A stretch of 64,000 nucleotides of DNA. Source: Lysobacterales bacterium. GTDB lineage: Bacteria; Pseudomonadota; Gammaproteobacteria; Xanthomonadales; Xanthomonadaceae. The translations under genes were made by a program, and so were the position numbers. This document shows positions 14,279 through 51,418 of this stretch, piece by piece. The notes under the pieces are model-generated. The model had not been told where the DNA came from and did no database searches. It saw only the letters and a program-made list of their open reading frames with translations. The DNA is taken from contig JBBRZH010000003.1 of NCBI GenBank assembly GCA_038236935.1, forward strand, positions 18,227 through 82,226. Direction: 5' to 3'. Numbering within the stretch: the first letter of the stretch is position 1; each line of letters starts with the position of its first letter.

Positions 14279-15382
14279 TTACAGCTTCACCAACTCCACC
14301 CGACGATTCCGGGCGCGGCCGTCCTCGGTGCCATTGCTGGCAATCGGCTGGTCCTGGCCCAACCCCTTGGATTCCAACCGAGATGGGTCGATGCCCAGCC
14401 CCACCAGGGCACCCAGCACGCTACGGGCGCGCGCCGCGGAGAGCTCCTTGTTATGCGCCGCGGTGCCGGTGTTGTCGGTATGTCCCTGGATCGACAATCG
14501 CAGCGTCGGGTCGCCAGCCAGCATCTTGTTGATTTCCCCGATCACCGGTTGCGCATCCGCGCGCAACGTCGCTTTGTCGATATCGAAATTGATGTAGAGC
14601 GCCACGTGTCCGTTGGCATCGATCGCCTTCTTCATCGCCGCCGCATCGAGCAGTCCAACCGACTGCGCCATCGCCTGGCGCTCAAGCACCACCACGAAAC
14701 CGTGCAGCGGAATGTGGCCGGTACTGATCTCGATCCAGTATTCCTTGTCCGGGGTGCGGATCAGGTAACTGTCGTGCGGGTACTCCGGTACGACCGCGGC
14801 GCCGTAGGCATTCTTTTCGATCTTGTCGCGGCCCCCAGCTGCCGCGATCATCGCGTCGGTGTATTGGCTGGTGTTGATTTGCTTGCCGCCCAGCGCAGTG
14901 ATGACGTTCTCGTAATTCTTCTGGAACTCACGCTCCGAATATGTCCTGTCGCCGTTCTGCAGGGCGAAGTTGTCGTGGAAGACCTTGCCTTCCACCATGA
15001 CCGGCTTGTTGCCGGCGATGAAATACTGGCCGTCGAACGAGACGTGCTTGTCCTTTTCGTCCAGCCCGCTTTCCAACCCCTCGGGCGCCTTGAAAAACGG
15101 AAACGGCGGCAGGCTGGCGGTGGTGACCGGGACGCTGGCCGGGTCGAAATCACCAGCTCCTTGAGCGGGGCCGGGCTCCGCTGAGGTTGCGGCCAGGCTG
15201 GCCTGTGTCGCGACCGCCGTGGCGCCATCAACCGTCATTGAGCCAGCAGTACCGGCCGGTAGCGCCGGCGCGGCGGCGGGCGCAGCAGCCGATGACCCCG
15301 CTGACGCGGTAGCTTCACGGTTACATCCGGCCGCGGCCACGACTGCGGCGATGACCAGCGTTATCCATAAGTAACGTGCCAT
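14279..15382 (-). CDS. OmpA-family peptidoglycan-binding lipoprotein
   Basis: Lipobox-like AAAGC; C-terminal INFDIDKA, IQGHTDNTG, LSAARARSV and NRRVELVK. Confidence 0.88.
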   Translation of the reverse strand: MARYLWITLVIAAVVAAAGCNREATASAGSSAAAPAAAPALPAGTAGSMTVDGATAVATQASLAATSAEPGPAQGAGDFDPASVPVTTASLPPFPFFKAPEGLESGLDEKDKHVSFDGQYFIAGNKPVMVEGKVFHDNFALQNGDRTYSEREFQKNYENVITALGGKQINTSQYTDAMIAAAGGRDKIEKNAYGAAVVPEYPHDSYLIRTPDKEYWIEISTGHIPLHGFVVVLERQAMAQSVGLLDAAAMKKAIDANGHVALYINFDIDKATLRADAQPVIGEINKMLAGDPTLRLSIQGHTDNTGTAAHNKELSAARARSVLGALVGLGIDPSRLESKGLGQDQPIASNGTEDGRARNRRVELVKL

Positions 15383-15474
15383 GTCGAATCTCCCTGGGGT
15401 CCGGTCGCCATCATGCACCCACAGCGCCAGGATTCGGAGGGCAGCTTCGCCTGGCTAGGACGGGACGCGGCGGT

Positions 15475-18968: not shown

Positions 18969-19024
18969 GCCGGAGCGGAAAGCATGAGCCGGCTTGCACG
19001 GTCGGCGGATTGCGACCGTATCAG

Positions 19025-19059
19025 CGTGCCGCCGGAACCGGCGGCATTCCGGCGGCACG
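19025..19059. terminator. Strong GC hairpin just downstream of the TIR/STAND cluster
   Basis: 13-bp perfect arms CGTGCCGCCGGAA / TTCCGGCGGCACG; no U-tract. Confidence 0.5.
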
Positions 19060-19095
19060 TCGATTTCCCGATTCCTTCAGCGAGGCAGCGTTCGT

Positions 19096-19251
19096 CTACT
19101 TGTTGATGATGATCGGGGTGGTCACCGAGCGTCCCCGGATGGAGGCCGTTTCGGCCGGTGCAGCTTCCGCCTGCTGATCGGCGTTGTCCGAGGCTTCGGT
19201 GCCCTCGTCGTCGACGATGTCCTCATCGTCATCGGGATGCATTACGTTCAT
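19096..19251 (-). CDS. Unannotated 51-aa acidic peptide
   Basis: AGGAG-cacgac-ATG; MNVMHPDDDEDIVDDEGTEASDNADQQAEAAPAETASIRGRSVTTPIIINK*; GC3-rich codons; followed by a hairpin. Confidence 0.7.
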   Translation of the reverse strand: MNVMHPDDDEDIVDDEGTEASDNADQQAEAAPAETASIRGRSVTTPIIINK

Positions 19252-19341
19252 GTCGTGCTCCTGGAAAAGTCGACGATTAGGGGAAATTTCCCTCGGGCGG
19301 AACGTCGTGGAGCCGCCGAGGGATGCAGCCTACTCCTGTGA

Positions 19342-21489
19342 TCAGGGCAGCGTCGATATGGCCCGTTGCTGTCTGGGCAGGGCCGGCGAGGGGATGTGGT
19401 GTTGGTGCACCAAGGCGATCAGGGCCGGTTCGCGGTAACCGGTATTCCACAGCTTCGGGAGCAGGAGCTGGGCCTCGTGCTCGCGTCCGAGCGCGAGCAA
19501 TGCCTCCACCTGCAATCCCAGCAGTCGAGGATCATTGGTGCCAGGAGAGTGCGCTTGCGTCGTCCGCAAGGCGTGTTCGCGCAGTGCCGTCGCGGTGTCG
19601 CCATCGCTGGTCGTTGCGGCGAGCAGCAACCGGGCGCGGACCGTCGCCAGCACAATCTCGCGATCCTCCCGTTGACCAGCCAGTTGCGGCTCGAGAATGC
19701 CCAGCGCCCGTTGCACTTGCGCACGTGCGTCCACGCTGCGACCACTCCCATGTGCCTGCTGTGCCTTCTCGATCAGGGCATCCGCCAACTCGCGTTGCCA
19801 ACTGGCATTGCCCGGATCCTGGCGGGTCAGCCGCTCCAAGACCTGCAGTCCCCGGTTGGCAAGCGCACTTGCGCCAGGCGTGGCCGATCCTGGCGCGTCA
19901 CCCGCCACTCTCACCCATCGGGCCAGTTGCGTTGAATACAGGCCGGCGTCTTCCTGGAATGCGGTGCTGCTGGCGTCGACAACCAGCAGGCGATCGACCT
20001 CGTCCAGCGCCTGGCGCAGATAGCCGATGCCAGTCACGACATCACCGGTCAACGCCAGGGTGCGCCCGAGCGCGGCGCGCGAAAGCACCAGCTTTTCAGC
20101 CTGCGCGTTGTCGCGGGGATCGCGGTTGGCAAGGTCGGCCTCGATGTCGACATCGGTGCGATATTCGGCCACCGCGGTCGCCAGGTCACCACCCATCAAG
20201 GCCATCTTCGCCAGGTTGTTGTGTGCCAGCCCGAGCAGCGCAACCCAGTCGCGGTTGCCGCGGTCGATCTGCACCAGGGCTTCGGACAGCTTGCGCATGC
20301 TGCGGTATTGAGCCAGCGCCTCATCCACGCGACCACGTCCTTCCAGCACGTGTCCCATGTTGTTGTCGATGGTCGAGAGCTGGTACAGCAATCGCGAATT
20401 CGCTGGCGCAAGTGGTCGGCTACGAAGCAGCACGCGCTGTGCCGATTCGAAACCGGCCTGGGCCTGGTCGAGCTGGCCCTGGTACCAGTGCGTAGTGCCA
20501 ATGAACGCGAGATCGTCGGCATACGCCAGTTGGCGTTCGATATTCGATGGTGCGGCCTGCGCGAGTTTCGACGCGAGGGCGGCAGCGGCCTGGTAACTCC
20601 GTAAGGCTTCCGGAAGGTGCCCCTGCTCGGTCCGGACATTGCCGATCTTCACCAATGCCTTGGCGCGTTGCTCCAGCGACTGGTCGGTGACATCGGTGGT
20701 TGGCAGCGACTGGAAGTAGCCCATCGCCTGGTCGTTGACTGCTGCAAGGATGTCCAGTCGCTCGACTTGTGCAAGCTTGTCGCTGAGATCGCCCAGCATG
20801 AAGTCGACCAGCGCTTCGGCTTGCTTCTGCCGACGCTCTGCGGCGTGTCTTGCGATCATCGCCTGCACGGCCAGGAAGCTGGTCAGCGTCATCACGAGCA
20901 GCGCGAGCGCGGTGATGACCAGCATGCGTCGGTGACGTCGCGCCGCCTCGCGTTGCCGCAAGGTGTCCAGGTTGACGCCGAGCAGCCCAGACAGCAGCTT
21001 GAGCCGCGCCAGAGATTTACCATCCTTGCCCGGGCGGAGATCCGCGGCGAGTGGTTCGGCCGGTTGCGTGCCGAGTTCACCATTGGCATCAAGATCGAAA
21101 CGCAACGCTTCGGGGAAACATTCGCGGGCATCGCCAGCATGCGGTTCGCCAGCCACGATCAGGCAATAGATGCGGTGAGCGCGACCATTGCGCTTGAACT
21201 TCAGGATCTCGCCATTGACCCATGGAGAACGTGCGGAATTGGGCGAGCAGACCACGATCAGGGCTTCGGAATCCGCCAGCGCCGCCTGGATCTTCGGACC
21301 GAGTTCACCGGCGCTGGCGAGTTCCTCGCGATCACGGAAAAATGGCGCCAGGCGATCGGGCAATACGCCGAATTCGCCACTGCTGCCGCGCAGTCGAGAC
21401 GGCACGCGATAGCCTTCCAGGTTGCGATGCAGCCAGCTGGCCCAGCGCGAATCCTTGTGGCTGTAGCTGATGAAAGCGCGGTACCGCAT
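19342..21489 (-). CDS. TIR domain - TM - TPR-like repeat protein
   Basis: AFISYSHKD, FFRDREEL, LIVVCSPNSARSPWVNGEI (catalytic-position Glu), one hydrophobic helix after RHRR, then helical repeats. Confidence 0.88.
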   Translation of the reverse strand: MRYRAFISYSHKDSRWASWLHRNLEGYRVPSRLRGSSGEFGVLPDRLAPFFRDREELASAGELGPKIQAALADSEALIVVCSPNSARSPWVNGEILKFKRNGRAHRIYCLIVAGEPHAGDARECFPEALRFDLDANGELGTQPAEPLAADLRPGKDGKSLARLKLLSGLLGVNLDTLRQREAARRHRRMLVITALALLVMTLTSFLAVQAMIARHAAERRQKQAEALVDFMLGDLSDKLAQVERLDILAAVNDQAMGYFQSLPTTDVTDQSLEQRAKALVKIGNVRTEQGHLPEALRSYQAAAALASKLAQAAPSNIERQLAYADDLAFIGTTHWYQGQLDQAQAGFESAQRVLLRSRPLAPANSRLLYQLSTIDNNMGHVLEGRGRVDEALAQYRSMRKLSEALVQIDRGNRDWVALLGLAHNNLAKMALMGGDLATAVAEYRTDVDIEADLANRDPRDNAQAEKLVLSRAALGRTLALTGDVVTGIGYLRQALDEVDRLLVVDASSTAFQEDAGLYSTQLARWVRVAGDAPGSATPGASALANRGLQVLERLTRQDPGNASWQRELADALIEKAQQAHGSGRSVDARAQVQRALGILEPQLAGQREDREIVLATVRARLLLAATTSDGDTATALREHALRTTQAHSPGTNDPRLLGLQVEALLALGREHEAQLLLPKLWNTGYREPALIALVHQHHIPSPALPRQQRAISTLP

Positions 21490-21534
21490 GTGTATTCCTT
21501 GTGGCGTGGCAGCCGGGTTCGGCCGTGAAAGGAA

Positions 21535-23265
21535 TCATCCGGACATCTGTGCATTTTCCAGCGGCCGCTCACGATGCAACAGGATCCATTCGGCATGTTC
21601 TTCCAGGCAGGCGCGTCCCAGCGCCAGCAGCAATTGCCTGGATTCGGCTTCTCCTCGCGCGCGATTCAGGCGTTCCCGGCAACTGTCGAACAGGCGCCGC
21701 ATGAAGCGGAACTGCTTGATCAATTCCTTGTCGGCTTTCTTGTACGAATACGCTTCGTGCAAACCGGCCAGCAGTGGCAGCAGGCCCATCGCCAGCACCA
21801 GCATCTGTTGCGTGATCGCGTGCAACCGATGCCCTCCGATCAGCAGAACCAGGGCGCCCGTGAGTCCAGCAAGCAATGCGAGATTGCTCAGGCGCGTGGT
21901 CGTGCGATGGGAACGTTCGCGTTGCAGGCTGCAGCGCTGGAAATAATCCAGTTGCCCACCCTTGCCTGAGCGATCGCCGATCCAGTGGTCGATGACCCAT
22001 TCCAGCCATCGCGAGTCGGGAACAAATGATTCATCGCGCAGCAAGCTGGTGTCGCGCATGGCATGGCGAATCCAGCTCAGGTCGACATCCTGTTTCTGGA
22101 GGAAACTATCGTAGCCCAGGCTGCTGTTGGGTGGGATCTCGACGCCTGCAATCCGCCAGTAGAGTTCCACGCGCAGGCCTTCGGCCAGGCCACGGTAATC
22201 GAGGTACTTGCGCTGCCATTGCCGTCGCTGGCCGATGATCGCCAGCAACAGCCCGAGCAGGAACAATCCGAGGAATGCCGCAAGGTACACCCGCAGCGGC
22301 GTGGCATCGGAATACAAAATGAAGGCCATGCCCATCAGCGCCGCGATCACGTGCGTGCACCACAGGCTCAGGCGCACGCGTCGCTGGAAATGGATGGCAA
22401 GCCAGTCGGCAGCATGGAACCGCCGCTCGATGGCAGCCGCGTTCCGTGATGGCGCACAGGGCAGTGGCGCAGTGAACAACGTCGATGCATCAATAGCGAT
22501 CTCCGGCGCGTACCGGTGCAGGTCGGCGTTGAACATTTCCAGCTGCCGGAATACATGGATGTAGTGTTCGGGCAGGCCACTGGACGCATCATGTTCGTCG
22601 GCCTGCGTCACCCATCGCGTCTTTAACGGCGGCAGCCGTGGTGGCGTACCTTGCGCGCCCAGGCGCCTGGAACAACTGATGTGGAAGATCAGGTCGCTTT
22701 CGTCATCGGCCAGCAGGTTGGGCGCGATCTCGTCGACGCTCAGGTTCGGCATCGTGTCGTGCAGGTGGAACTCGACTACCTGCGCGGTGCCACCCATCGC
22801 GCCATTCGAATTGCCGTCCCACAACGCCAGCAACAACTGGCAATGCGAGGACACGAACATTCCCAGTTGCGCGTATTGGCGATTGCGGGTTTCCCCACGC
22901 ACGGCAATCGCTTCGGAACAGATGCCCGGTGCGAGTGGCAACACCCGCACTACCGCTTGGGCAAGGATGGTCTGGAATCTCCGCAGCACGGCTGGATCGG
23001 TGAAATCACGTTCGTATTCGGCTTGCGCCATCGGTAAAGGGACCATCAGTTCGATCCCCAGTGCCAGCGCTTCCTCCGCCACCAGCTGGTCGCCGCCTTC
23101 GGCCAGCGCCGAGATCAACCGCAATGGGAGGTCCGGGAATTGCTCGCGCAGGTCAAGGAAAAATGCGCGAACAGTTGTCCGCAGCCCCGGCTCCTCTTCG
23201 GAAAGCAGGTCACGATGAGCGGTCAGGCCAATATTCAATCGCGCCCTGATGTCGGTGGGACTCAT
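21535..23265 (-). CDS. SLOG-like domain fused to two 2TM (SLATT/DUF4231-like) modules
   Basis: IGLTAHRDL, ISALAEGGDQLVAE, LLALWDG..GAMGGTAQVV (SLOG-like); TM hairpin followed by WQRKYLDYRGLAEGLR; second TM hairpin followed by ADKELIKQFRFMRRLF. Confidence 0.75.
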   Translation of the reverse strand: MSPTDIRARLNIGLTAHRDLLSEEEPGLRTTVRAFFLDLREQFPDLPLRLISALAEGGDQLVAEEALALGIELMVPLPMAQAEYERDFTDPAVLRRFQTILAQAVVRVLPLAPGICSEAIAVRGETRNRQYAQLGMFVSSHCQLLLALWDGNSNGAMGGTAQVVEFHLHDTMPNLSVDEIAPNLLADDESDLIFHISCSRRLGAQGTPPRLPPLKTRWVTQADEHDASSGLPEHYIHVFRQLEMFNADLHRYAPEIAIDASTLFTAPLPCAPSRNAAAIERRFHAADWLAIHFQRRVRLSLWCTHVIAALMGMAFILYSDATPLRVYLAAFLGLFLLGLLLAIIGQRRQWQRKYLDYRGLAEGLRVELYWRIAGVEIPPNSSLGYDSFLQKQDVDLSWIRHAMRDTSLLRDESFVPDSRWLEWVIDHWIGDRSGKGGQLDYFQRCSLQRERSHRTTTRLSNLALLAGLTGALVLLIGGHRLHAITQQMLVLAMGLLPLLAGLHEAYSYKKADKELIKQFRFMRRLFDSCRERLNRARGEAESRQLLLALGRACLEEHAEWILLHRERPLENAQMSG

Positions 23266-23392
23266 CTTCTGGCTGGTCCAGCATTGGCGTTGAAGGCGTT
23301 ATACGCCTCGGGAGGGGTGCCAGGAAAAGGGTGATCAAACGAGGGGCAGGTTCATTCTCTTTTCTGCGAGGTACATTGAACGCAGGTGTCGA

Positions 23393-26300
23393 TTACTTCA
23401 CGCGCGCTGCCGTGATCAATCCGGACAGGTCGCGCATGGATGCGAGTTGCTTTGCTTCGGTCGAACTCCCGTCGATTAACTGGACGGCAGCGTTGAGGTC
23501 GGCAGCGCGCTTGGCATGGCCGTCGACGTCAGTGTCGCGTGTAAGTGCGCTGACATACAGCGCATAGGCAAAGTCCTGCCGGAAGCTGGTTCCAGCCGCA
23601 CCCGCGTGCTGCTCTCCACTGTAGAACGCCAGTGCCGGTTGCAGGGTTGCCTGCGCTTCGTCATTGCGTGCTTGCGCGGCCAAGGCGTGGCCCAGCGCGG
23701 CAGCTGCCTGCGACGACTTGATTCGCGGATCGTCTTCCGACTTCGGATTAGGTGGAAGGGCAAGCCACCGTCGCGCCAGTGCTTCGGCTTGGGGGTAGCG
23801 GCCAAGTCGGAGTGCGGCATGACTCGCCGTGAACAGAACGCCGGAAAGAAAATTTTGTTGCATCAATTCCGCGCTGCTGCCTGGTGCGGTCTTGACCAGG
23901 TCAAGCCGGCTGACAATGGCGTTCGCGTCATTGAATGCGGCTTGGGTCTGGCCCGCGAACAGCTCCAGTCGTGCATTCATCTGCTGGGCGGGGTTCGCCA
24001 GCAATTGCCTTCGCGGGTCGTTCGCGGGTAGCGGTGCGATCAGCACGCCGGTGTCATGGACGAATCCTTTCACCGACTGCGTCGAGGCGTCGAAATCCCC
24101 GGCCTGGGCCTGCAACTGCCCGAGCTGCGCCCAGCCGAACCACATGTTGGGACCTAAATCGGACGGTCTCCGCGGGTCCTGCTCCATGGCCATCAGTGAA
24201 CGAAGACTTGCGATTGATCGACTGACTTCGCCACGTTCAAACTGCAGGTCAGCGACCTGTTGCAAGCCCGATGCCCAGCGTTGCCATGCACCCATGTCAG
24301 ATGGGTTGAAACGCACCTCGTCCTCGCCTGCCTGGGCGGCGCGTCGGGAATAGTCATCAGCGGTTGCAAGATCATGCTGGCGCCCGGCAATGGAACCGAT
24401 CAGCTCGGCGGCCCACGAACGATCGCTCAATGCATGCAGGTCGCCGGGTCGCTGCGCCAGTACTTTTTCTGCAAGGTCATACACCTGTTGTTCGAGCGCA
24501 CGTGCTTCACCGACACGGCCGAGCGAGAGCAGTTCACGCGATTCCGAGTCAGCGGTATCGGCGTACGACGCCGTCGCGTTGAGATCCGCCAGCTGCAAGG
24601 CGCCGAGCGTCACCAGCACTTTCCGCGCTTCAGCACAGCTTGCTACACCCTTGTCCGGGGTCTGCGAGTGGCTGAGGATGTTCAAGGTATCGGCATATAA
24701 CGACCGGACGCGTCGTGACGGGTTGGCGCCATAGACCAGCGGGCGCAACATATCGGCGGACTGGGTCAGCTGCGCCGCGGTGCCACGTCCGCCTCCGCTG
24801 GAACCCACGGTGCTGTAACCCTGGGTCGTGAGTGCCAGGGCCAAACCGTACGTGACGGGTTCGCCTTGGTCCCCGGCGGCGCGAAGTCGTTCGAAGATCG
24901 TTTCGGCCTCGCCGAAATTCTTGTAGGCCGCCGGGATGTTTCCACTGGATTGCAGCGCCGCGCCCTCGCGTACGAGGGCCATCGCGCGATAGATCCGCGT
25001 CTGTGGGGTCACCAGCTCCGGTGGCAGCCCATCGTAGTAACCCACCGTCATGTGTGCGAGCTTGCCCAGCGTGTCCAGGCGGCCGGTGGGTTCCAGTTCG
25101 GAATAGAAATCCTCGATCAGGAAGCTCACCAGCTTCTCGGCATTGCTGCGCGACGTTTGCGCTTCGAGTTCCGCCGAACGCGCGCGGTGCATGTTGACCC
25201 AGCCGAAGATCGCACCGGCGCCAGCGAGCAACATCAGCACGGCGCATACGGTGGCGATCATTCGCGCCCGCAGCAACGCGCGATGCGTCGTGGCTTCACG
25301 CGCTTTTTGCTCCGCAAGCCGGCGCTCGGCATCGTCGCGCGCTTCACGTTCCTGTCGCAGGTTGCGACTGGCGAGGACCACGCTGCAAAGCACGTCGTGG
25401 GTCAGCTCCACGCGGCGCATGTCCAGGCGCTCCTCGATGCGCAGCAGGCGTCGATTGACCAGGGTCGACAGCGCATCGGGGGCGGCACCCGCCGCGACGA
25501 GGGCCTTGATGACGCGTTCCTCGGCCAGGCTTTCGCGATACCCCGAATCAGTCAGCAGGTCGTCCTCGATCACGCGTCGCACGCCCGCAGGTTGATCGGC
25601 GAGGGTGCGTTCGTAGAACTCGCTGAGGATGGTGTCGCGCGAACCAGCCAGCAGGTCGGCGGAAATTTCGCTGCGTCCCTGTAGTTGCCGGACGGTGTTG
25701 AGTTCGCGGCAGACCAGGCTCAGCAATGAAGGTTCGATCTCCGCGTTGCCCAGCTCCGAACCGCCGGCGACGAAACGCACGATCGATTCCGCCACTTCCT
25801 GCGACACCAGGCGTCCGCCGGGCTTGACCACGGCACTAAGCGCCTGCGTGCCGGTCATGCGCGCCAAGCGCATCCTGTTCTGCGTGATCGACGGCATGAT
25901 GCCCTTCACGCTTTCCAGGTGCGCCAGGTAGTCTTCGCGCAATGCAATCAGGATGCGGTAGTCAGCGCGTGCGAAGTCGAAACTCTCCGCTGCCGTGTCG
26001 TCGTTCTCGATTCGTGCTTCGAGCGCGGCGGGCGGGCGGTTCTCGACCAGATCGGCGAGGTCATCCAGGAACTGGCGTGCACGCAGCCGACCGGCATCGT
26101 CCGCCTGCCCCAGGGTGAAGATCTCTTCGAACTGGTCGAAGATCAGCAAGGGCACCAGCGCGCGTCCATCGCCGTCGCGCAGCAGGTCGGAGCGATGGTG
26201 CAGGAACTCCCACAGTGATTCGCCTTCCACGGCGCTGCCAGGAAGCGTCCAGTCGCCGGCGACAGCCGATGCCTTGAAGATCTCCTGCTTGATCTGTTCA

Positions 26301-26581
26301 GAAGGCGAGGGCGATTCGGGTGCGTAGTCGATGCGCACGTAGATTGGACAAAATCCCTCGGTGCGCAGGCGCGGCACGATGCCGGCGCGCAACAGCGATG
26401 TCTTGCCCAACCCGGACTGACCGAACAACACCGTCAGCAGCTTGCGCTGCACGCGTCGCGCCAGTTCCGCGGTTTCTTCCTCGCGGCCATGGAAATACGC
26501 GAGTGTTTCCTCCGAATACGAGAACAGGCCCAGCCAAGGATTCTCTGGATCGACAGTAACCGCGTCGGCAGGCGTGCTCAT
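23393..26581 (-). CDS. nSTAND1-type NTPase - TM - TPR-like repeat protein
   Basis: NPWLGLFSY..YFHGRE, Walker A GQSGLGKT, Walker B LLIFDQFEEIF, ILIALREDYL, LVNRRLL, VELTHDVL, then a TM helix and helical repeats. Confidence 0.9.
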   Translation of the reverse strand: MSTPADAVTVDPENPWLGLFSYSEETLAYFHGREEETAELARRVQRKLLTVLFGQSGLGKTSLLRAGIVPRLRTEGFCPIYVRIDYAPESPSPSEQIKQEIFKASAVAGDWTLPGSAVEGESLWEFLHHRSDLLRDGDGRALVPLLIFDQFEEIFTLGQADDAGRLRARQFLDDLADLVENRPPAALEARIENDDTAAESFDFARADYRILIALREDYLAHLESVKGIMPSITQNRMRLARMTGTQALSAVVKPGGRLVSQEVAESIVRFVAGGSELGNAEIEPSLLSLVCRELNTVRQLQGRSEISADLLAGSRDTILSEFYERTLADQPAGVRRVIEDDLLTDSGYRESLAEERVIKALVAAGAAPDALSTLVNRRLLRIEERLDMRRVELTHDVLCSVVLASRNLRQEREARDDAERRLAEQKAREATTHRALLRARMIATVCAVLMLLAGAGAIFGWVNMHRARSAELEAQTSRSNAEKLVSFLIEDFYSELEPTGRLDTLGKLAHMTVGYYDGLPPELVTPQTRIYRAMALVREGAALQSSGNIPAAYKNFGEAETIFERLRAAGDQGEPVTYGLALALTTQGYSTVGSSGGGRGTAAQLTQSADMLRPLVYGANPSRRVRSLYADTLNILSHSQTPDKGVASCAEARKVLVTLGALQLADLNATASYADTADSESRELLSLGRVGEARALEQQVYDLAEKVLAQRPGDLHALSDRSWAAELIGSIAGRQHDLATADDYSRRAAQAGEDEVRFNPSDMGAWQRWASGLQQVADLQFERGEVSRSIASLRSLMAMEQDPRRPSDLGPNMWFGWAQLGQLQAQAGDFDASTQSVKGFVHDTGVLIAPLPANDPRRQLLANPAQQMNARLELFAGQTQAAFNDANAIVSRLDLVKTAPGSSAELMQQNFLSGVLFTASHAALRLGRYPQAEALARRWLALPPNPKSEDDPRIKSSQAAAALGHALAAQARNDEAQATLQPALAFYSGEQHAGAAGTSFRQDFAYALYVSALTRDTDVDGHAKRAADLNAAVQLIDGSSTEAKQLASMRDLSGLITAARVK

Positions 26582-27978
26582 GCGGACCTCCGCCCGGACA
26601 GGTCTTGCAGGCGGTGCAGGAATTCCGGCGACGGCTCGCCGCCGGGCAGCCGCACGATATGCAGCGCCTTGAAATTCTCGGGCACCAGCGCATCGCCCTG
26701 CGGCGTGTCATCGATGCACACCGGCAGGATGAACATGCCGCCATCGGCGATGTTGCGGGCGCGATCGACGGCGTAACTCCATTCGCGGCGGAAATACGCC
26801 TCGTGTCGTCGCTGCGTGGCGGCCGAAATCACCGGCACGAAGAAACTGCAGCGCGCGATGTTCGCTCGGATCTTGCGGTCGTAGTCGTCGCCGCCTTCCA
26901 GCCGGTCGATGTCGAACCAAGTGGTGATGCCGGCGGCATCCAGCGCGGCCTTGAGGTGTTGCACGGCCGCTAGGTCTTCGCGCGCGTAACTGATGAACAC
27001 CGCATTCTCCGGCATCTCGCGCGCTGGTGGCAGGAACCGTTGCGGCGCGCCGGTCGAGACACTGGATGCCAGGGATGGGCGCTGGCGTCGTGTCCAGCGT
27101 GCGTGCAGTTCGGCGACGAACGCCTCCGCCCCGCCATACACGCGCGTGCGCACGCTGACCTGCTGCAGGAAGGCCACCAGCCGGCTGTCCTGCATCGTGT
27201 GGTCGTCGGCGAACACTTCGGTGACATCGCGCGGATCGGACAGGCGCTTGCGCTTGGCCATGCGCAGGAACAATCGCGCCAGCCAGTTGGAGAAATCGCT
27301 GCCGATCAGCAGCAGGTGGTTGTGCTCGAGTTCGTGGAAGAGCTTCTCCGGCGTCAGGTGCTCGGACTGCAGCGCGCAGATGAACTCCAGCATGTCTTCG
27401 TCCGACAGCACATACGTCGGTGACGCCGACAGCCTCCCGAGCAGGTGGTAGATGACCGTATGTTGCAGCTGGCTGCGTTCGACCGGCAGGTCGACGACGC
27501 GATTGGGCGCATAGGCGATGACTTCGGTCGATGCCTGGCCGCCATGTCGCTCGGCGTTGATTGCGTTCTCGAGCAGTGGATCGAACGTGGTCGTCACGAA
27601 CAGGTTGAAGTCGGTGATCTGAGCCAGTTGCCGCAGGGCCAGCGGCGGCTCGAACTGCACCTCCCGCATGATCGATCGCAACCGCGTATATGCTTCCTCG
27701 CGCCGGCCGTGCTGGCCGAGGTAGCAGCACATCACGTCGTTGAGCGTGAGCGGGCGCGGCAAGCCGACGACGTCGACCGAGAGTCGGCCAGCAAGCTTTT
27801 CGGCCAGCCATTCGTACAAGGGGCGCAGTCCAGAGTCGGTCTGCACGCGGAGCAGGTCGGGCCCGATGATCGGGATGACCCGTCGCTCCTCGATGTAGTT
27901 CAACAGGTCGTCCCAGGCATCGTCGTCAAAGCCCTGCAAAGCGGGCGTGGTGGGCAGAAGTGTCGGTTCGGTTGCCAT
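26578..27978 (-). CDS. SIR2-like (SIR2_2) domain + C-terminal TIR domain protein
   Basis: VIPIIGPDLL, FVTTTFD, IYHLLG and LLLIGSDFSNWLAR form a SIR2-like Rossmann fold; VFISYAREDL, WFDIDRLEGGDDY and YFRREW are TIR motifs; ATGA overlap with the STAND gene. Confidence 0.8.
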   Translation of the reverse strand: MATEPTLLPTTPALQGFDDDAWDDLLNYIEERRVIPIIGPDLLRVQTDSGLRPLYEWLAEKLAGRLSVDVVGLPRPLTLNDVMCCYLGQHGRREEAYTRLRSIMREVQFEPPLALRQLAQITDFNLFVTTTFDPLLENAINAERHGGQASTEVIAYAPNRVVDLPVERSQLQHTVIYHLLGRLSASPTYVLSDEDMLEFICALQSEHLTPEKLFHELEHNHLLLIGSDFSNWLARLFLRMAKRKRLSDPRDVTEVFADDHTMQDSRLVAFLQQVSVRTRVYGGAEAFVAELHARWTRRQRPSLASSVSTGAPQRFLPPAREMPENAVFISYAREDLAAVQHLKAALDAAGITTWFDIDRLEGGDDYDRKIRANIARCSFFVPVISAATQRRHEAYFRREWSYAVDRARNIADGGMFILPVCIDDTPQGDALVPENFKALHIVRLPGGEPSPEFLHRLQDLSGRRSA

Positions 27979-49543: not shown

Positions 49544-51418
49544 ATGCCCTTGATCACCCTCCAGAACGTCGACTTCAGCGTCGGCGGCCCCCTGCTGCTG
49601 GACCACGTTGACCTGGCGATCGAACCGGGCGAACGCATCGCCCTGATCGGCCGGAACGGCGCCGGCAAGTCGACACTACTCAAACTGTTGTCCGGGGACC
49701 TGAAACCGGATGATGGCGAACTGCGCGTGGAAGGTGGCCGGCGGATCGCGCGGCTTGAGCAGGAAGTGCCTCGCGATGCGCAAGGTGCCGTGTTCGACGT
49801 AGTGGCAGCTGGTTTGGGGGAACTGGGCGCGCAGCTCGCGCAATTCCATCATCTCAGCCATGCCGATCCAGTCGACACCGACGCGCTGGCGCAGGTCCAG
49901 TCGCTGATCGAAGCGGCCAACGGCTGGTCGCTGGACCAGCGCGTGACCGAGGTGCTGGAGCGTCTCAGCCTGGATGGGGATGGCGACTTCGCACGGCTGT
50001 CAGGCGGGATGAAGCGACGCGTGCTGCTTGCTCGGGCGCTGGTCTCCGCGCCAGATGTGTTGTTGCTGGATGAGCCGACCAACCATCTGGATATTGCCGC
50101 GATCGACTGGCTGGAAGGCTTCCTGAAAAGCTGGCAGGGCGCATTGGTGTTCGTCACGCATGACCGTCGATTCCTGCGCGCACTGGCGACGCGCATCGTC
50201 GAGATCGATCGAGGCAAGCTGACCAGTTGGCCGGGCGACTGGGCCAATTACCAACGCCGCCGCGAGGAACGCCTCAACGCCGAGGCCCAGGAAAGCGCGC
50301 GTTTCGACAAGATGCTGGCGCAGGAGGAAACCTGGATCCGTCAGGGGATCAAGGCCCGCCGGACCCGCGACGAAGGCCGCGTGCGGCGGCTGGAATCCAT
50401 GCGCAGCGAGCGCGCGTCGCGGCGAGAACAGGTCGGCAACGTGCGCATGGAAACCGCGCAGGCCGGTGCATCGGGCAAGAAGGTGATCCAGGCACGCGAT
50501 GTCTCGTTTTCCCATGGTGCATCGACCCTCGTCCGTGATTTCAACACCACCATCCTGCGCGGGGATCGAATCGGGCTGATCGGTCCCAATGGCAGCGGAA
50601 AGACGACCTTGCTGAAACTCCTGCTGGGAGAGCTGCAGCCCGATTCCGGAGAGATCAACATCGGTACCCAATTGCAGGTCGCCTATTTCGACCAATACCG
50701 GGCGACGTTGCGCGAAGACTGGAATGCGGTGGAAAACGTCGCGGAGGGACGTGACTTCATCGAGATCGGAGGCCGTCGCAAGCATGTGCTGGGCTACCTG
50801 CAGGATTTCCTGTTCACGCCCGAACGTGCACGCGCGCCGATTACGCGTTTGTCGGGGGGCGAGCGCAACCGACTGCTCCTGGCACGGCTGTTCGCGCAGC
50901 CCTCCAACCTGCTGGTGATGGATGAGCCGACCAATGACCTGGACGTGGAGACGCTGGAACTGCTGGAGGAGTTGCTGGGCGACTACTCCGGGACCTTGTT
51001 GCTGGTCAGCCACGATCGCGATTTTCTCGATAATGTCGTGACGTCAACGCTGGTCATGCAGGACGGCAGTGCAGGTCGCATTGGCGAGTATGTCGGCGGG
51101 TACAGCGACTGGCTGCGACAGCGCGCAAAGTCCGCAGTCGCCACCTCACGACTGGCTGCGTCGCCTGTACCTGCTCCGGTTGCCGCGGTCGTGGCCAAGC
51201 GCAAACCCAGCTACAAGGACGTGCGCGAACTGGAGCAGCTGCCGCTGCGGATCGACATGCTAGAAGGCAAATTGGCCGCGCTGACGGAACAGATGAACGA
51301 TCCGGCCTTTTATCAGCGCACGAGTGTTGCGATTACCGCGCACAACGATGCCGTGGCGCAGGCCCAAGCCGAACTTGACACTGCCTATGCACGCTGGGCT
51401 GAACTGGAGAGGGCCTGA
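49544..51418 (+). CDS. uup: ABC-F family ATPase Uup
   Basis: Two NBDs (GRNGAGKST/LSGGMKRR and GPNGSGKT/LSGGERNR), EETWIRQGIKARRTRDEGRVR linker, C-terminal coiled coil. Confidence 0.92.
   Translation: MPLITLQNVDFSVGGPLLLDHVDLAIEPGERIALIGRNGAGKSTLLKLLSGDLKPDDGELRVEGGRRIARLEQEVPRDAQGAVFDVVAAGLGELGAQLAQFHHLSHADPVDTDALAQVQSLIEAANGWSLDQRVTEVLERLSLDGDGDFARLSGGMKRRVLLARALVSAPDVLLLDEPTNHLDIAAIDWLEGFLKSWQGALVFVTHDRRFLRALATRIVEIDRGKLTSWPGDWANYQRRREERLNAEAQESARFDKMLAQEETWIRQGIKARRTRDEGRVRRLESMRSERASRREQVGNVRMETAQAGASGKKVIQARDVSFSHGASTLVRDFNTTILRGDRIGLIGPNGSGKTTLLKLLLGELQPDSGEINIGTQLQVAYFDQYRATLREDWNAVENVAEGRDFIEIGGRRKHVLGYLQDFLFTPERARAPITRLSGGERNRLLLARLFAQPSNLLVMDEPTNDLDVETLELLEELLGDYSGTLLLVSHDRDFLDNVVTSTLVMQDGSAGRIGEYVGGYSDWLRQRAKSAVATSRLAASPVPAPVAAVVAKRKPSYKDVRELEQLPLRIDMLEGKLAALTEQMNDPAFYQRTSVAITAHNDAVAQAQAELDTAYARWAELERA

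What the first reader, a model, noticed from the sequence alone, without database searches (positions are those of the whole stretch)
19096..27978. Candidate undescribed conflict/defence system: SIR2-like-TIR + nSTAND1-TM-TPR + SLOG-2xSLATT + TIR-TM-TPR + acidic peptide
Seen: five co-oriented genes. The first two overlap by ATGA, the later gaps are about 127, 45 and 90 nt, and a 13-bp hairpin closes the unit. Both TIR domains keep the catalytic-position Glu (PWVNGEI, YFRREW) and the NTPase has intact Walker A and B. Known: TIR NADases make ADPR-derived signals; in type I Thoeris such a signal binds a SLOG domain; SLATT 2TM domains are predicted membrane effectors linked to SLOG/SMODS; STAND-TPR proteins are pattern sensors in Avs systems. 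Inference: membrane-anchored sensors activate TIR signalling, which is read by the SLOG domain and opens or activates the 4-TM effector, giving abortive death or dormancy. I do not recognise this combination as any named system, but I could not run a search.
Basis: partly seen in the sequence, partly recalled or inferred. Interest (0 to 1): 0.92.

Follow-up and report, generated by a model that had tools for sequence, protein, structure and literature searches.

The report
Two membrane TIR sensors, one pore
A Luteimonas-like soil bacterium carries a five-gene cluster in which two membrane-anchored alarm modules built on TIR enzymes flank one shared nucleotide-sensing pore protein; it is an untested, more elaborate relative of the Thoeris anti-phage systems, not a wholly new kind of system.

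Summary
The five co-oriented genes exist as described, and the domain calls hold. A is SIR2-like plus TIR. B is nSTAND1, one TM helix and a helical C-terminal region. C is a SLOG domain plus two SLATT hairpins. D is TIR, one TM helix and TPR. E is a 51-aa acidic peptide.

The locus is a composite of two modules, not one indivisible system. A-B occurs alone in other families. C-D-E occurs alone in about 20 Lysobacteraceae loci, including the syntenic closest relative. A-B-C occurs in 7-9 loci. The full five-gene order recurs once, in an unrelated context.

C and D co-occur across relatives (13 of 14 genomes; Fisher p = 1e-8). Distant C homologues sit beside TIR or TIR-STAND genes far more often than chance predicts.

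E belongs to an undescribed class of small proteins that follow D and end in P-[IV]-I-I-N-[KR].

The C-terminal halves of B and D lie beyond a single TM helix, so they are probably periplasmic. They diverge fast, and in D the pattern looks recombined, whereas TIR, NTPase and A are strongly conserved.

The closest known systems are type VII Thoeris (TIR + SLATT) and a predicted "SLOG and 4TM" Thoeris effector class. Two members of that class gave no defence in E. coli.

Verdict: a new variant of a known kind. The mechanism is inferred and nothing has been tested.

The parts
26578..27978 (-). Gene A: soluble 466-aa protein with an N-terminal SIR2-like domain (Pfam SIR2_2 on residues 126-251, window 27226-27603) and a C-terminal TIR domain (residues 327-445, window 26644-27000). 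The candidate catalytic Glu is E399.
   Evidence: Pfam. E399 is invariant and T131 replaces the canonical SIR2 Asn. The TIR aligns to SPARTA, PdTIR and SARM1 TIR domains. dN/dS is 0.08. No TM segment was found.
23393..26581 (-). Gene B: nSTAND1 NTPase (residues 15-427; Walker A G54-S62 at window 26396-26422), a single TM helix (residues 435-453, window 25223-25279), and a roughly 600-aa helical C-terminal region that is probably extracytoplasmic. Its start overlaps the stop of A (ATGA).
   Evidence: Pfam nSTAND1 E 7e-32. ATGA overlap. TM helix and K/R bias. The juxtamembrane region is homologous to D. The NTPase is 86% and the C-terminus 53% identical to L064.
21535..23265 (-). Gene C: SLOG domain (about residues 1-230, window 22576-23265) followed by two SLATT-type 2-TM hairpins, each with an amphipathic helix (about residues 280-375, window 22141-22428; about residues 437-565, window 21571-21957). 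This is the predicted nucleotide-gated membrane effector.
   Evidence: DUF4231/SLATT hits. AF2 model with pLDDT 83. Foldseek matches to YpsA, DprA, ShosA and TRPM2. Second SLATT. Four TM helices with alternating K/R flanks. Invariant GxTxHR, AEGGD and WDG..GGT motifs.
19342..21489 (-). Gene D: TIR domain (residues 1-135, window 21085-21489; catalytic-position Glu E94 in SPWVNGEI), a single TM helix (residues 190-208, window 20866-20922), and a TPR/helical-repeat region (213-715) that is probably extracytoplasmic.
   Evidence: Pfam TIR_2, ThsB_TIR and TPR_2. E94 conserved. TM helix. Against the syntenic relative L062 the TIR is 93% identical (dS 0.48) and the C-terminal third 56% identical (dS 1.27).
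19096..19251 (-). Gene E: 51-aa acidic, probably disordered peptide with an AGGAG ribosome-binding site 7 nt upstream and an invariant C-terminal tail PIIINK. It belongs to a class of small proteins found after D-type genes.
   Evidence: Sequence. 52-aa orthologues in L062, L063 and L064 have a diverged body and an identical tail. Tail-bearing ORFs occur in 15 of about 20 evaluable D loci.
19021..19064 (-). GC-rich hairpin (13-14 bp stem) 36 nt after the E stop codon. It is a possible terminator that closes the unit, but no U-tract follows it.
   Evidence: strand folding gave -36.5 kcal/mol with z = -2.5. The consensus terminator scan did not call it.

Best explanation
The locus is a chromosomal, horizontally mobile, immune-type (Thoeris-like) signalling system. 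It was built by joining two sensor modules around one shared effector.

Module 2 (C-D-E) is the older core.
- D is a bitopic membrane receptor with a cytoplasmic TIR domain and a variable TPR domain beyond a single TM helix, so that domain is probably in the periplasm.
- When triggered, D's TIR converts NAD+ into an ADP-ribose-derived messenger.
- The cytoplasmic SLOG domain of C binds the messenger.
- C's two SLATT hairpins then oligomerise or open and depolarise the membrane, giving growth arrest or death.
- E is a fast-evolving acidic peptide with a fixed PIIINK tail. It is a regulator or partner of D or C. My guess is a brake or adaptor docking through its tail.

Module 1 (A-B) was inserted upstream of C.
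- B is an nSTAND1 NTPase with the same TM-proximal module as D and its own variable outer domain.
- On sensing, B oligomerises and activates the soluble SIR2-like-TIR protein A. The two genes are translationally coupled.
- A's TIR cleaves NAD+. Where A-B stands alone, this depletes NAD+ directly. In this locus its product probably also feeds C.

Shown: gene and domain identities, the linkages, the conservation patterns, the topology-relevant TM helices and purifying selection.
Inferred: every biochemical step, the trigger, the periplasmic orientation, the A-to-C cross-talk and the role of E.
For: 1. Domains. The catalytic-position Glu is conserved in both TIR domains.
2. A and D are the only TIR_2 genes in the 2.34-Mb genome, and they flank C.
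3. C-D linkage. In 41 related genomes both are present in 13, C only in 1 (a pseudogene) and D only in 1 (Fisher p = 1.1e-8, not corrected for phylogeny). They are adjacent in both C-D and D-C orders. 18 or more species-representative loci have C-D.
4. Distant C homologues (30-43% identity) have a TIR gene within two genes in 3 of 7 informative contexts (binomial p about 1e-6). A Caballeronia plasmid carries a C homologue, a TIR protein and an nSTAND1-like WD40 protein in a row.
5. The A-B pairing holds down to 30% identity with different sensor arrays (WD40, Sel1), which is the classic STAND pattern. A-B alone occurs in Rudaea and Rhodanobacteraceae.
6. History. The C tree places all A-B-bearing loci in one derived clade inside C-D loci. 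A-B is a clean 4.9-kb indel relative to syntenic L062. A-B-C persists intact after loss of D in at least 7 loci. The full order recurs in L064 with different flanks.
7. Immune-like evolution. Distribution is patchy: C in 9 of 29 good genomes of the genus, A in 4 of 150 genomes of the order. A is 83-97% identical across families, which indicates horizontal transfer. A close relative carries a decayed copy (L030). Signalling domains are conserved while sensor halves diverge fast and look mosaic.
8. Precedent. TIR + SLATT is validated type VII Thoeris using cADPR, and SLOG binds gcADPR in type I Thoeris (bioRxiv 10.64898/2025.12.03.692087).
Against: - There is no experiment on any member of this family.
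- The two 'SLOG and 4TM' operons tested by Yirmiya et al. gave no defence in E. coli. I could not confirm by sequence that those effectors are C homologues.
- The locus is not in a defence island. Its neighbours are housekeeping genes, as they are in most related loci.
- Many C homologues have no adjacent TIR: Arenimonas, Halieaceae and 4 of 7 distant samples. C may therefore respond to something else, or to a TIR encoded elsewhere.
- A-B is self-sufficient elsewhere, and its adjacency to C in Lysobacteraceae traces to a single insertion event, so A-to-C cross-talk is weakly supported.
- The SIR2-like domain lacks canonical catalytic residues, and my model of A was too poor to use (pLDDT 56).
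- Periplasmic orientation is deduced from one TM helix and a modest K/R bias.
- E has no signal peptide, so it cannot reach a periplasmic TPR domain. That undercuts the tail-binds-TPR idea.
Confidence: 0.6

Rival explanations
1. Two independent conflict systems lie side by side without cross-talk. A-B is a self-contained STAND system whose effector A depletes NAD+. C-D-E is a separate Thoeris-like system.
For: A-B occurs alone in other families, and at 30% identity, with no C nearby. C-D-E occurs alone in about 20 loci, including the syntenic closest relative. The A-B/C adjacency in Lysobacteraceae derives from one insertion.
Against: A-B-C is kept intact after D is lost in at least 7 loci. 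Independent C + TIR + STAND neighbourhoods exist in a Caballeronia plasmid and in a metagenomic contig. B and D share a homologous TM-proximal module, which suggests a common membrane complex or a common origin.
Confidence: 0.2
2. The locus is a non-immune physiological pathway. Envelope or periplasmic cues are sensed by B and D and converted to an NAD-derived second messenger that gates C as an ion channel, for stress adaptation and not for abortive infection.
For: The genes sit among housekeeping neighbours with no defence island. All four large genes are under strong purifying selection (dN/dS 0.08-0.18). Many C homologues are stand-alone or lie next to RyR/TrkA-type channel-related genes. 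The fold resembles the ADPR-gated channel TRPM2. The heterologous defence tests of the 'SLOG and 4TM' class were negative.
Against: Distribution is patchy with decay in close relatives. A shows cross-family horizontal transfer. The sensor halves are fast-evolving and mosaic. TIR, STAND and SLATT are all domains with repeated immune roles.
Confidence: 0.15
3. The locus is a decaying or non-functional remnant, and the small ORF E is a chance reading frame.
For: A close relative (L030/G015) carries a truncated C with A, B and D deleted. E has a high dN/dS over its body.
Against: All five frames are intact. The large genes have dN/dS of 0.18 or less. E keeps its length (51-52 aa), its ribosome-binding site and an invariant tail across 41%-identical orthologues, and it belongs to a wider tail-bearing family.
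Confidence: 0.03

Closest known systems
Type VII Thoeris (ThsB TIR + ThsH SLATT effector; signal is canonical cADPR). Yirmiya et al., bioRxiv 10.64898/2025.12.03.692087
   Same: A TIR gene lies next to a SLATT-domain membrane effector. The expected logic is a TIR-made ADPR-derived signal that drives membrane disruption.
   Different: As described, ThsH is a SLATT protein whose own cytoplasmic pockets are proposed to bind cADPR. C has a separate N-terminal SLOG sensor and two SLATT modules. The TIR proteins here are membrane-anchored (D) or STAND-controlled (A-B). PADLOC and NCBIfam models give no system-level match.
Putative 'SLOG and 4TM' Thoeris effector class (Table S1/S2 of the same preprint; Streptomyces sp. 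GKU 895 and Ca. Nitrospira nitrosa operons)
   Same: The description matches C: SLOG plus four TM helices next to a TIR gene. The class was predicted from defence-island enrichment.
   Different: Both tested operons gave no defence in E. coli. Homology of those effectors to C was not tested because only their TIR sequences are available. The Streptomyces TIR aligns only weakly to A's TIR (E 0.011) and not to D's. No STAND partner, TM-TPR sensor or tail peptide is described for them.
Type I and type III Thoeris (SIR2-SLOG ThsA binding 3'cADPR; several TIRs + SLOG effector ThsD)
   Same: A SLOG domain acts as the receiver of a TIR-made signal, and several TIR genes can serve one effector.
   Different: The output domain here is 2x SLATT and not SIR2. 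The SIR2-like domain here sits on the TIR protein A and lacks the canonical catalytic Asn.
STAND NTPase defence systems (Avs, bNACHT) and Aravind-type nSTAND1 conflict systems
   Same: B carries the nSTAND1 NTPase with a variable C-terminal repeat sensor. Relatives of the A-B pair swap in WD40 or Sel1 sensors.
   Different: The effector (A) is a separate, translationally coupled protein and is not fused at the N-terminus. B has a TM helix that places its sensor outside the cytoplasm. No PADLOC Avs or NLR model hits B.
PCTM systems (ParA-like NTPase with C-terminal TM and periplasmic TPR, pentapeptide or SPOR domains, coupled to an upstream effector such as SLATT). bioRxiv 10.64898/2026.10.19.760177
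   Same: The design is an NTPase, a single TM helix, periplasmic repeats and an upstream effector gene. The proposed function is sensing of periplasmic or membrane perturbation during invasion.
   Different: The NTPase here is nSTAND1 and not ParA. The upstream effector is SIR2-like-TIR. The PCTM system is itself only a computational prediction.
TRPM2 (animal ADP-ribose-gated cation channel)
   Same: Foldseek matches C to TRPM2 chains (E 0.03-0.1), but with low probability (0.12-0.33), low TM-score and rmsd above 30 Å. Like C, TRPM2 pairs an N-terminal nucleotide-binding domain with a membrane domain. That this TRPM2 region is SLOG-like and binds ADPR is from my own knowledge.
   Different: The membrane domains are unrelated (2x SLATT against a six-TM channel). 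This is a functional analogy only.

Membership tests
Thoeris (general) | A TIR-domain gene (ThsB) is encoded next to an effector gene | tested here: met
   D (TIR_2, ThsB_TIR) lies 45 nt after C, and A (TIR_2) lies upstream. The C-D adjacency is conserved.
Thoeris (general) | The TIR domain keeps the catalytic Glu needed for NAD+ processing | tested here: met
   D E94 sits in the S-x-W-x-x-x-E motif and is conserved. A E399 is invariant and aligns to SPARTA E77.
Thoeris (general) | The effector carries a domain that binds the TIR-made signal | tested here: inconclusive
   The SLOG fold is supported and its glycine-rich motifs are invariant. Ligand binding cannot be tested here.
Thoeris (general) | Phage defence and a TIR-derived signal molecule are demonstrated | not testable with these tools
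   No experiment exists. The only related tests ('SLOG and 4TM') were negative in E. coli.
Thoeris (general) | The genes are enriched in defence islands | tested here: not met
   The window and its related loci have housekeeping flanks. PADLOC hits in the window are generic ABC-F and OmpA only.
Type VII Thoeris | The effector is ThsH, a SLATT-only protein homologous to the validated examples | not tested
The architecture differs: C adds a SLOG domain and a second SLATT.
Known defence systems in PADLOC-DB v2 | Full-length matches of the component proteins to system models | tested here: not met
   Only partial TIR-domain hits for A and a weak TPR hit for D. There were no hits for B, C or E.
SIR2 NADases (ThsA, DSR, SIR2-HerA type) | Canonical catalytic Asn (TTNYD-like motif), His, and the GAGxS NAD loop | tested here: not met
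   The motifs in A are GPDLL, TTTFD (T131 invariant) and YHLLG, and the His is Gln in one deep homologue. There is no sequence match to solved SIR2 structures. Which residues are canonical comes from my own knowledge.
STAND NTPase (nSTAND1) | An nSTAND1 profile match with intact Walker A and B motifs and a C-terminal repeat sensor | tested here: met
   Pfam PF20703 at 111.9 bits against a 27.1 cut-off. GQSGLGKTS and LLIFDQFEE are present in the sequence. The C-terminus is variable and helical.
SLATT | A 2-TM hairpin matching the SLATT/DUF4231 profiles | tested here: met
   The first hairpin hits DUF4231 at 29.9 bits against a 24.7 cut-off. For the second hairpin the window's own sequence is sub-threshold (SLATT_1 E 0.17), but homologues reach 29.4 bits against 26.3. 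Direct BLASTP between the two halves finds nothing.
SLOG superfamily | A Rossmann-like fold matching LOG/DprA/YpsA, with a glycine-rich phosphate-binding loop | tested here: met
   Foldseek: YpsA 2nx2 (E 6e-4, target TM-score 0.63), DprA, ShosA, Moco carrier protein, TM1055. The WDG..GGT motif is invariant. No Pfam SLOG-family hit was found.

The most novel reading that the evidence does not exclude
B and D are bacterial counterparts of Toll-like receptors in topology. A rapidly diversifying helical-repeat ectodomain in the periplasm detects an envelope-level event such as phage adsorption or injection, peptidoglycan damage or a contact-dependent attack. It signals across one TM helix to a cytoplasmic TIR, either directly (D) or through a STAND NTPase that recruits a TIR protein (B with A). 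The product opens a SLOG-gated pore. A previously undescribed family of small proteins, defined only by a C-terminal [DNQGT]-P-[IV]-I-I-N-[KR] tail and here represented by the 51-aa acidic peptide E, acts as the system's brake, adaptor or decoy.
Probability: 0.3. Interest if true: 0.8.

Novelty: new variant of a known kind. Interest (0 to 1): 0.6.

Why it matters
If the model is right, it extends TIR/Thoeris signalling in three directions.
- Sensing would take place outside the cytoplasm, through single-pass TIR and STAND receptors.
- Two different sensor modules would feed one effector.
- The effector would join a SLOG nucleotide sensor to two SLATT pore modules, a bacterial analogue of ADPR-gated channels.

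It also gives concrete entry points:
- the catalytic residues D-E94, A-E399 and B-K60;
- natural subsets of the system (A-B, C-D-E, A-B-C and the full locus) that amount to ready-made deletion series;
- a new tail-defined small-protein family whose role can be tested.

The same effector class has already been predicted but failed in heterologous tests. A proteobacterial version with its native partners (E, c2, TM sensors) may explain why.

Tried and rejected
- AlphaFold2 model of A from 13 sequences: mean pLDDT 56. It was too poor for a fold search and was not used.
- Sequence search of A's SIR2-like half against PDB: no relevant hit.
- BLASTP between the two SLATT halves of C: no alignment. 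The duplication rests on profile hits and the model.
- Pfam and NCBIfam on the SLOG region of C, on E and on the c2 proteins: nothing.
- PADLOC on all 44 other window proteins. The apparent mad3, AriA and PtuA hits all come from one ABC-F-type ATPase (49544-51418), and the ZorB hit comes from one other window protein that I did not identify but take to be the OmpA protein at 14279-15418. I rejected these as evidence of a defence island.
- Hairpin between D and E: not more stable than shuffled sequence (z = -0.8). The sigma-70 promoter scan found none in the region.
- The listing of cluster members for the taxonomy of distant C homologues: almost no names.
- Comparison of published '4TM SLOG' TIR sequences with A and D: only a weak match to A, so equivalence of the classes is unproven.
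- Plasmid search: no close copies of A or C on plasmids, only distant ones.
- I considered the idea that E's tail binds D's TPR. I downgraded it because E lacks a signal peptide while the TPR domain is predicted to be periplasmic.


Full report
**1. What is there**

The window has about 62% G+C. Its closest named relative is a Luteimonas sp. MAG. It carries five co-oriented minus-strand ORFs at exactly the coordinates given.
- The stop of A overlaps the start of B as ATGA.
- The remaining gaps are 127, 45 and 90 nt.
- A GC-rich hairpin with a 13-14 bp stem follows E. It folds at -36.5 kcal/mol with z = -2.5, but it lacks a U-tract and the consensus terminator scan did not call it.

**2. Domains**

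Pfam gives SIR2_2 + TIR_2 for A, nSTAND1 for B, DUF4231 (a SLATT-type family) for C, and TIR_2, ThsB_TIR and TPR for D. It gives nothing for E. NCBIfam adds SLATT_1 and SLATT_3, below their cut-offs, for C.

The SLOG call could not be confirmed by profiles, so I tested it by structure. An AlphaFold2 model of C built on 27 homologues has mean pLDDT 83. Its best PDB matches are the SLOG-superfamily proteins YpsA, DprA, ShosA, Moco carrier protein and TM1055. Matches to TRPM2 chains also appear, but with low probability. The motifs GxTxHR, AEGGD and WDG..GGT are invariant across 27 sequences down to 43% identity.

The second 2-TM module is SLATT_1-like. Six of ten homologue C-terminal halves hit that profile, one of them above the cut-off. 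The two halves show no direct BLASTP similarity to each other.

Hydropathy finds one TM helix in B (residues 435-453), one in D (190-208), four in C with alternating K/R flanks, and none in A. The NTPase and TIR domains need cytoplasmic NTP and NAD+ and lie N-terminal to the single helix. The large C-terminal regions of B and D should therefore be extracytoplasmic. This is a deduction and has not been shown.

B and D share a homologous TM-plus-juxtamembrane module (29% identity over 127 aa, E 4e-11). That stretch includes D's best TPR. On its own, B shows only a sub-threshold TPR_12 hit.

**3. Catalytic residues**

- D has the S-x-W-x-x-x-E motif (SPWVNGEI, E94), conserved in at least 95% of 19 homologues.
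- A's E399 (FRREW) is invariant down to 30% identity. It aligns with E77 of a SPARTA TIR. That E77 is catalytic is from my own knowledge.
- A's SIR2-like domain has GPDLL, TTTFD and YHLLG in place of the canonical GAGxS, TTNYD and KLHG. T131 is invariant and the His is not. There is no sequence match to solved SIR2 structures. I read it as a non-canonical and probably non-catalytic SIR2-like module.
- My model of A was too poor to use (pLDDT 56).
- B has Walker A GQSGLGKTS and Walker B LLIFDQFEE.

**4. The locus is modular**

A scan of species-representative genomes found 48 loci with a C homologue. Mapping the five proteins onto them gave the following:
- A-B-C without D in 7 fully evaluable loci, plus 2 truncated ones.
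- C-D without A-B in 18 or more loci.
- C with neither in Arenimonas, Halieaceae and a few others.
- No locus with both A-B and D.

Look-ups of close metagenomic relatives filled the gap.
- L062 (C 90% identical) occupies the same chromosomal site between the His-phosphatase and GGDEF genes. It has only C-D-E. Relative to it, A-B is a clean 4.9-kb indel.
- L064 (C 77% identical) has the full A-B-C-D-E order in unrelated flanks.

A-B also stands alone.
- It occurs without C in Rudaea and Rhodanobacteraceae and in G116.
- A SIR2_2-TIR_2 gene followed by an nSTAND1 gene recurs at 30% identity, with WD40 or WD40+Sel1 sensors in place of TM-TPR.

A maximum-likelihood tree of C puts all A-B-bearing loci in one derived clade nested among C-D loci. 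The simplest history is this: C-D-E is ancestral, A-B inserted once upstream of C, and D-E or A-B was later lost in different lineages.

**5. Is the linkage meaningful?**

- A and D are the only TIR_2 genes in the genome.
- In the same 41 related genomes, C and a TIR-bearing D homologue are both present in 13. C alone is present in 1 (a pseudogene), D alone in 1, and neither in 26. Fisher p = 1.1e-8, uncorrected for shared ancestry.
- They are adjacent in nine of the thirteen, in C-D order in the 60-70% identity clade and in D-C order in the 42-45% clade.
- Of seven informative contexts of distant C homologues (30-43% identity), three have a TIR gene within two genes: TIR-TPR in L051 and L069, and TIR-STAND-WD40 next to P0205. 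Four have none. Against a background of about 0.35% this gives p of about 1e-6.
- A Caballeronia plasmid carries, in a row, a C homologue, a TIR protein and an nSTAND1-like WD40 protein. This is an independent instance of the C + TIR + nSTAND1 trio.

C is a large family: 919 clusters at 50% identity with E below 1e-30, mostly 560-600 aa.

**6. The small peptide**

E is not a chance ORF.
- Orthologues in L062, L063 and L064 are 52 aa long and only 41% identical. All are acidic and all end in PIIINK.
- More widely, 15 of about 20 evaluable D loci have one to three downstream ORFs ending in [DNQGT]-P-[IV]-I-I-N-[KR]. Some are beta-rich proteins of about 130 aa (the 'c2' cluster). Others are short acidic or polar peptides. 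Both kinds occur together in L014, L017, L018 and L026.
- A c2-like protein also follows C in the 35%-identical L069 system.
- Neither kind matches Pfam or NCBIfam.
- Most lack signal peptides. This argues against binding to a periplasmic TPR domain and for a cytoplasmic partner such as the TIR or linker of D, or the SLOG or SLATT helices of C. The role of E is unknown. Brake, adaptor or decoy is a guess.

**7. Evolutionary signature**

- A is rare, found in 4 of 150 genomes of the order. Yet it is 83-97% identical across Lysobacteraceae, Rhodanobacteraceae, Rudaea and Dokdonella. This indicates horizontal spread under strong constraint (dN/dS 0.08).
- B, C and D have dN/dS of 0.15-0.18.
- Between the window and syntenic L062, D's TIR is 93% identical (dS 0.48, similar to C). 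Its C-terminal third is 56% identical (dS 1.27, dN/dS 0.28). The gene is therefore a mosaic whose sensor half has been exchanged or is much older.
- B shows the same gradient: NTPase 86%, C-terminus 53%.
- A near relative (L030/G015) carries a truncated C with A, B and D gone.

Patchiness, horizontal transfer, decay and sensor diversification are typical of conflict systems. Against this, neither this locus nor its relatives lie in defence islands.

**8. Comparison with what is known**

- PADLOC-DB v2 gives only partial TIR-domain hits.
- Yirmiya et al. (bioRxiv 10.64898/2025.12.03.692087) validated TIR + SLATT as type VII Thoeris, with cADPR as the signal.
- The same preprint lists 29 putative effector types. 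One is 'SLOG and 4TM', and two operons of that type (Streptomyces, Nitrospira) gave no defence in E. coli. By description this is C's class. I could not test it by sequence.
- Type I and type III Thoeris use SLOG receivers.
- The NTPase-TM-periplasmic-repeat design with an upstream effector parallels the predicted PCTM systems (bioRxiv 10.64898/2026.10.19.760177).
- Earlier notes of this scan report similar SLOG-2xSLATT/TIR/STAND/RyR neighbourhoods in other phyla. I treated them as leads. My own L061 and P0205 contexts independently show the RyR association.

**9. Verdict**

The locus is best described as a dual-sensor, membrane-anchored, Thoeris-like system built from two separable modules around a shared SLOG-2xSLATT effector. 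It includes an undescribed class of tail-defined small proteins.

It is a new variant of a known kind.

Noticed in passing
L009, L010, L012, L014, L015, L017, L018, L020, L022, L026, L040, L043 (downstream of the D homologues); L038:21-566; L069:7914-8372: This is the 'c2' family, an unannotated beta-rich protein of about 125-180 aa that follows D-type TIR-TM-TPR genes and ends in DP[IV]IIN[RK]. One member (L038) has a signal peptide and ends DPIIDNRGGGPN. Another (L069) ends DPGFKNTY. There are no Pfam or NCBIfam matches.
   Followed up: partly
L030:10001-11065 (also G015:C12): A close relative (C fragment 92% identical) has C truncated after residue 317 and lacks A, B and D. A remnant of E's tail (…RGRSVTTPIIINK*) lies on the opposite strand right after the C fragment. 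This points to a deletion plus inversion that destroyed the locus.
   Followed up: partly
L051:7001-9511: An 836-aa C homologue has a duplicated SLOG domain (SLOG-SLOG-2xSLATT). A TIR-TPR gene and an unannotated 528-aa gene precede it.
   Followed up: no
L061:5615-5899; L071:1239-1535; context of P0205: Small RyR-domain proteins (PF02026), and once a TrkA_N-RyR protein, sit directly upstream of distant C homologues. In one case a TIR-STAND-WD40 gene lies downstream. RyR may be a second recurring partner of the SLOG-SLATT family.
   Followed up: no
L056-L058:8287-8742; L069:10878-11492: NUDIX hydrolase genes lie next to the A-B pair in Rudaea and next to the TIR-TPR gene in L069/L070. A NUDIX enzyme could degrade an ADPR-type signal. 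The window itself has none nearby.
   Followed up: no
L010, L012, L013, L022, L040 (cluster c4, about 600-720 aa, beside C or after c2): A membrane protein with N-terminal TM helices, a FlgO/TolB-like stretch and TPR repeats recurs next to C-D loci in Thermomonas-type genomes. It may be local synteny or a further component.
   Followed up: no
window 49544-51418 (+): A 624-aa protein with two ABC ATPase domains (ABC-F type) produces strong but generic PADLOC hits (mad3 8.8e-52, AriA, PtuA). It is a likely false positive for automated defence finders.
   Followed up: partly
window 19385-20050 against L062 (3' half of D): Synonymous divergence jumps from about 0.5 in the TIR-coding part of D to 1.3-1.6 in the part encoding the outer domain, while flanking genes are 86-90% identical at the DNA level. 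This is a recombination mosaic inside the sensor gene.
   Followed up: partly
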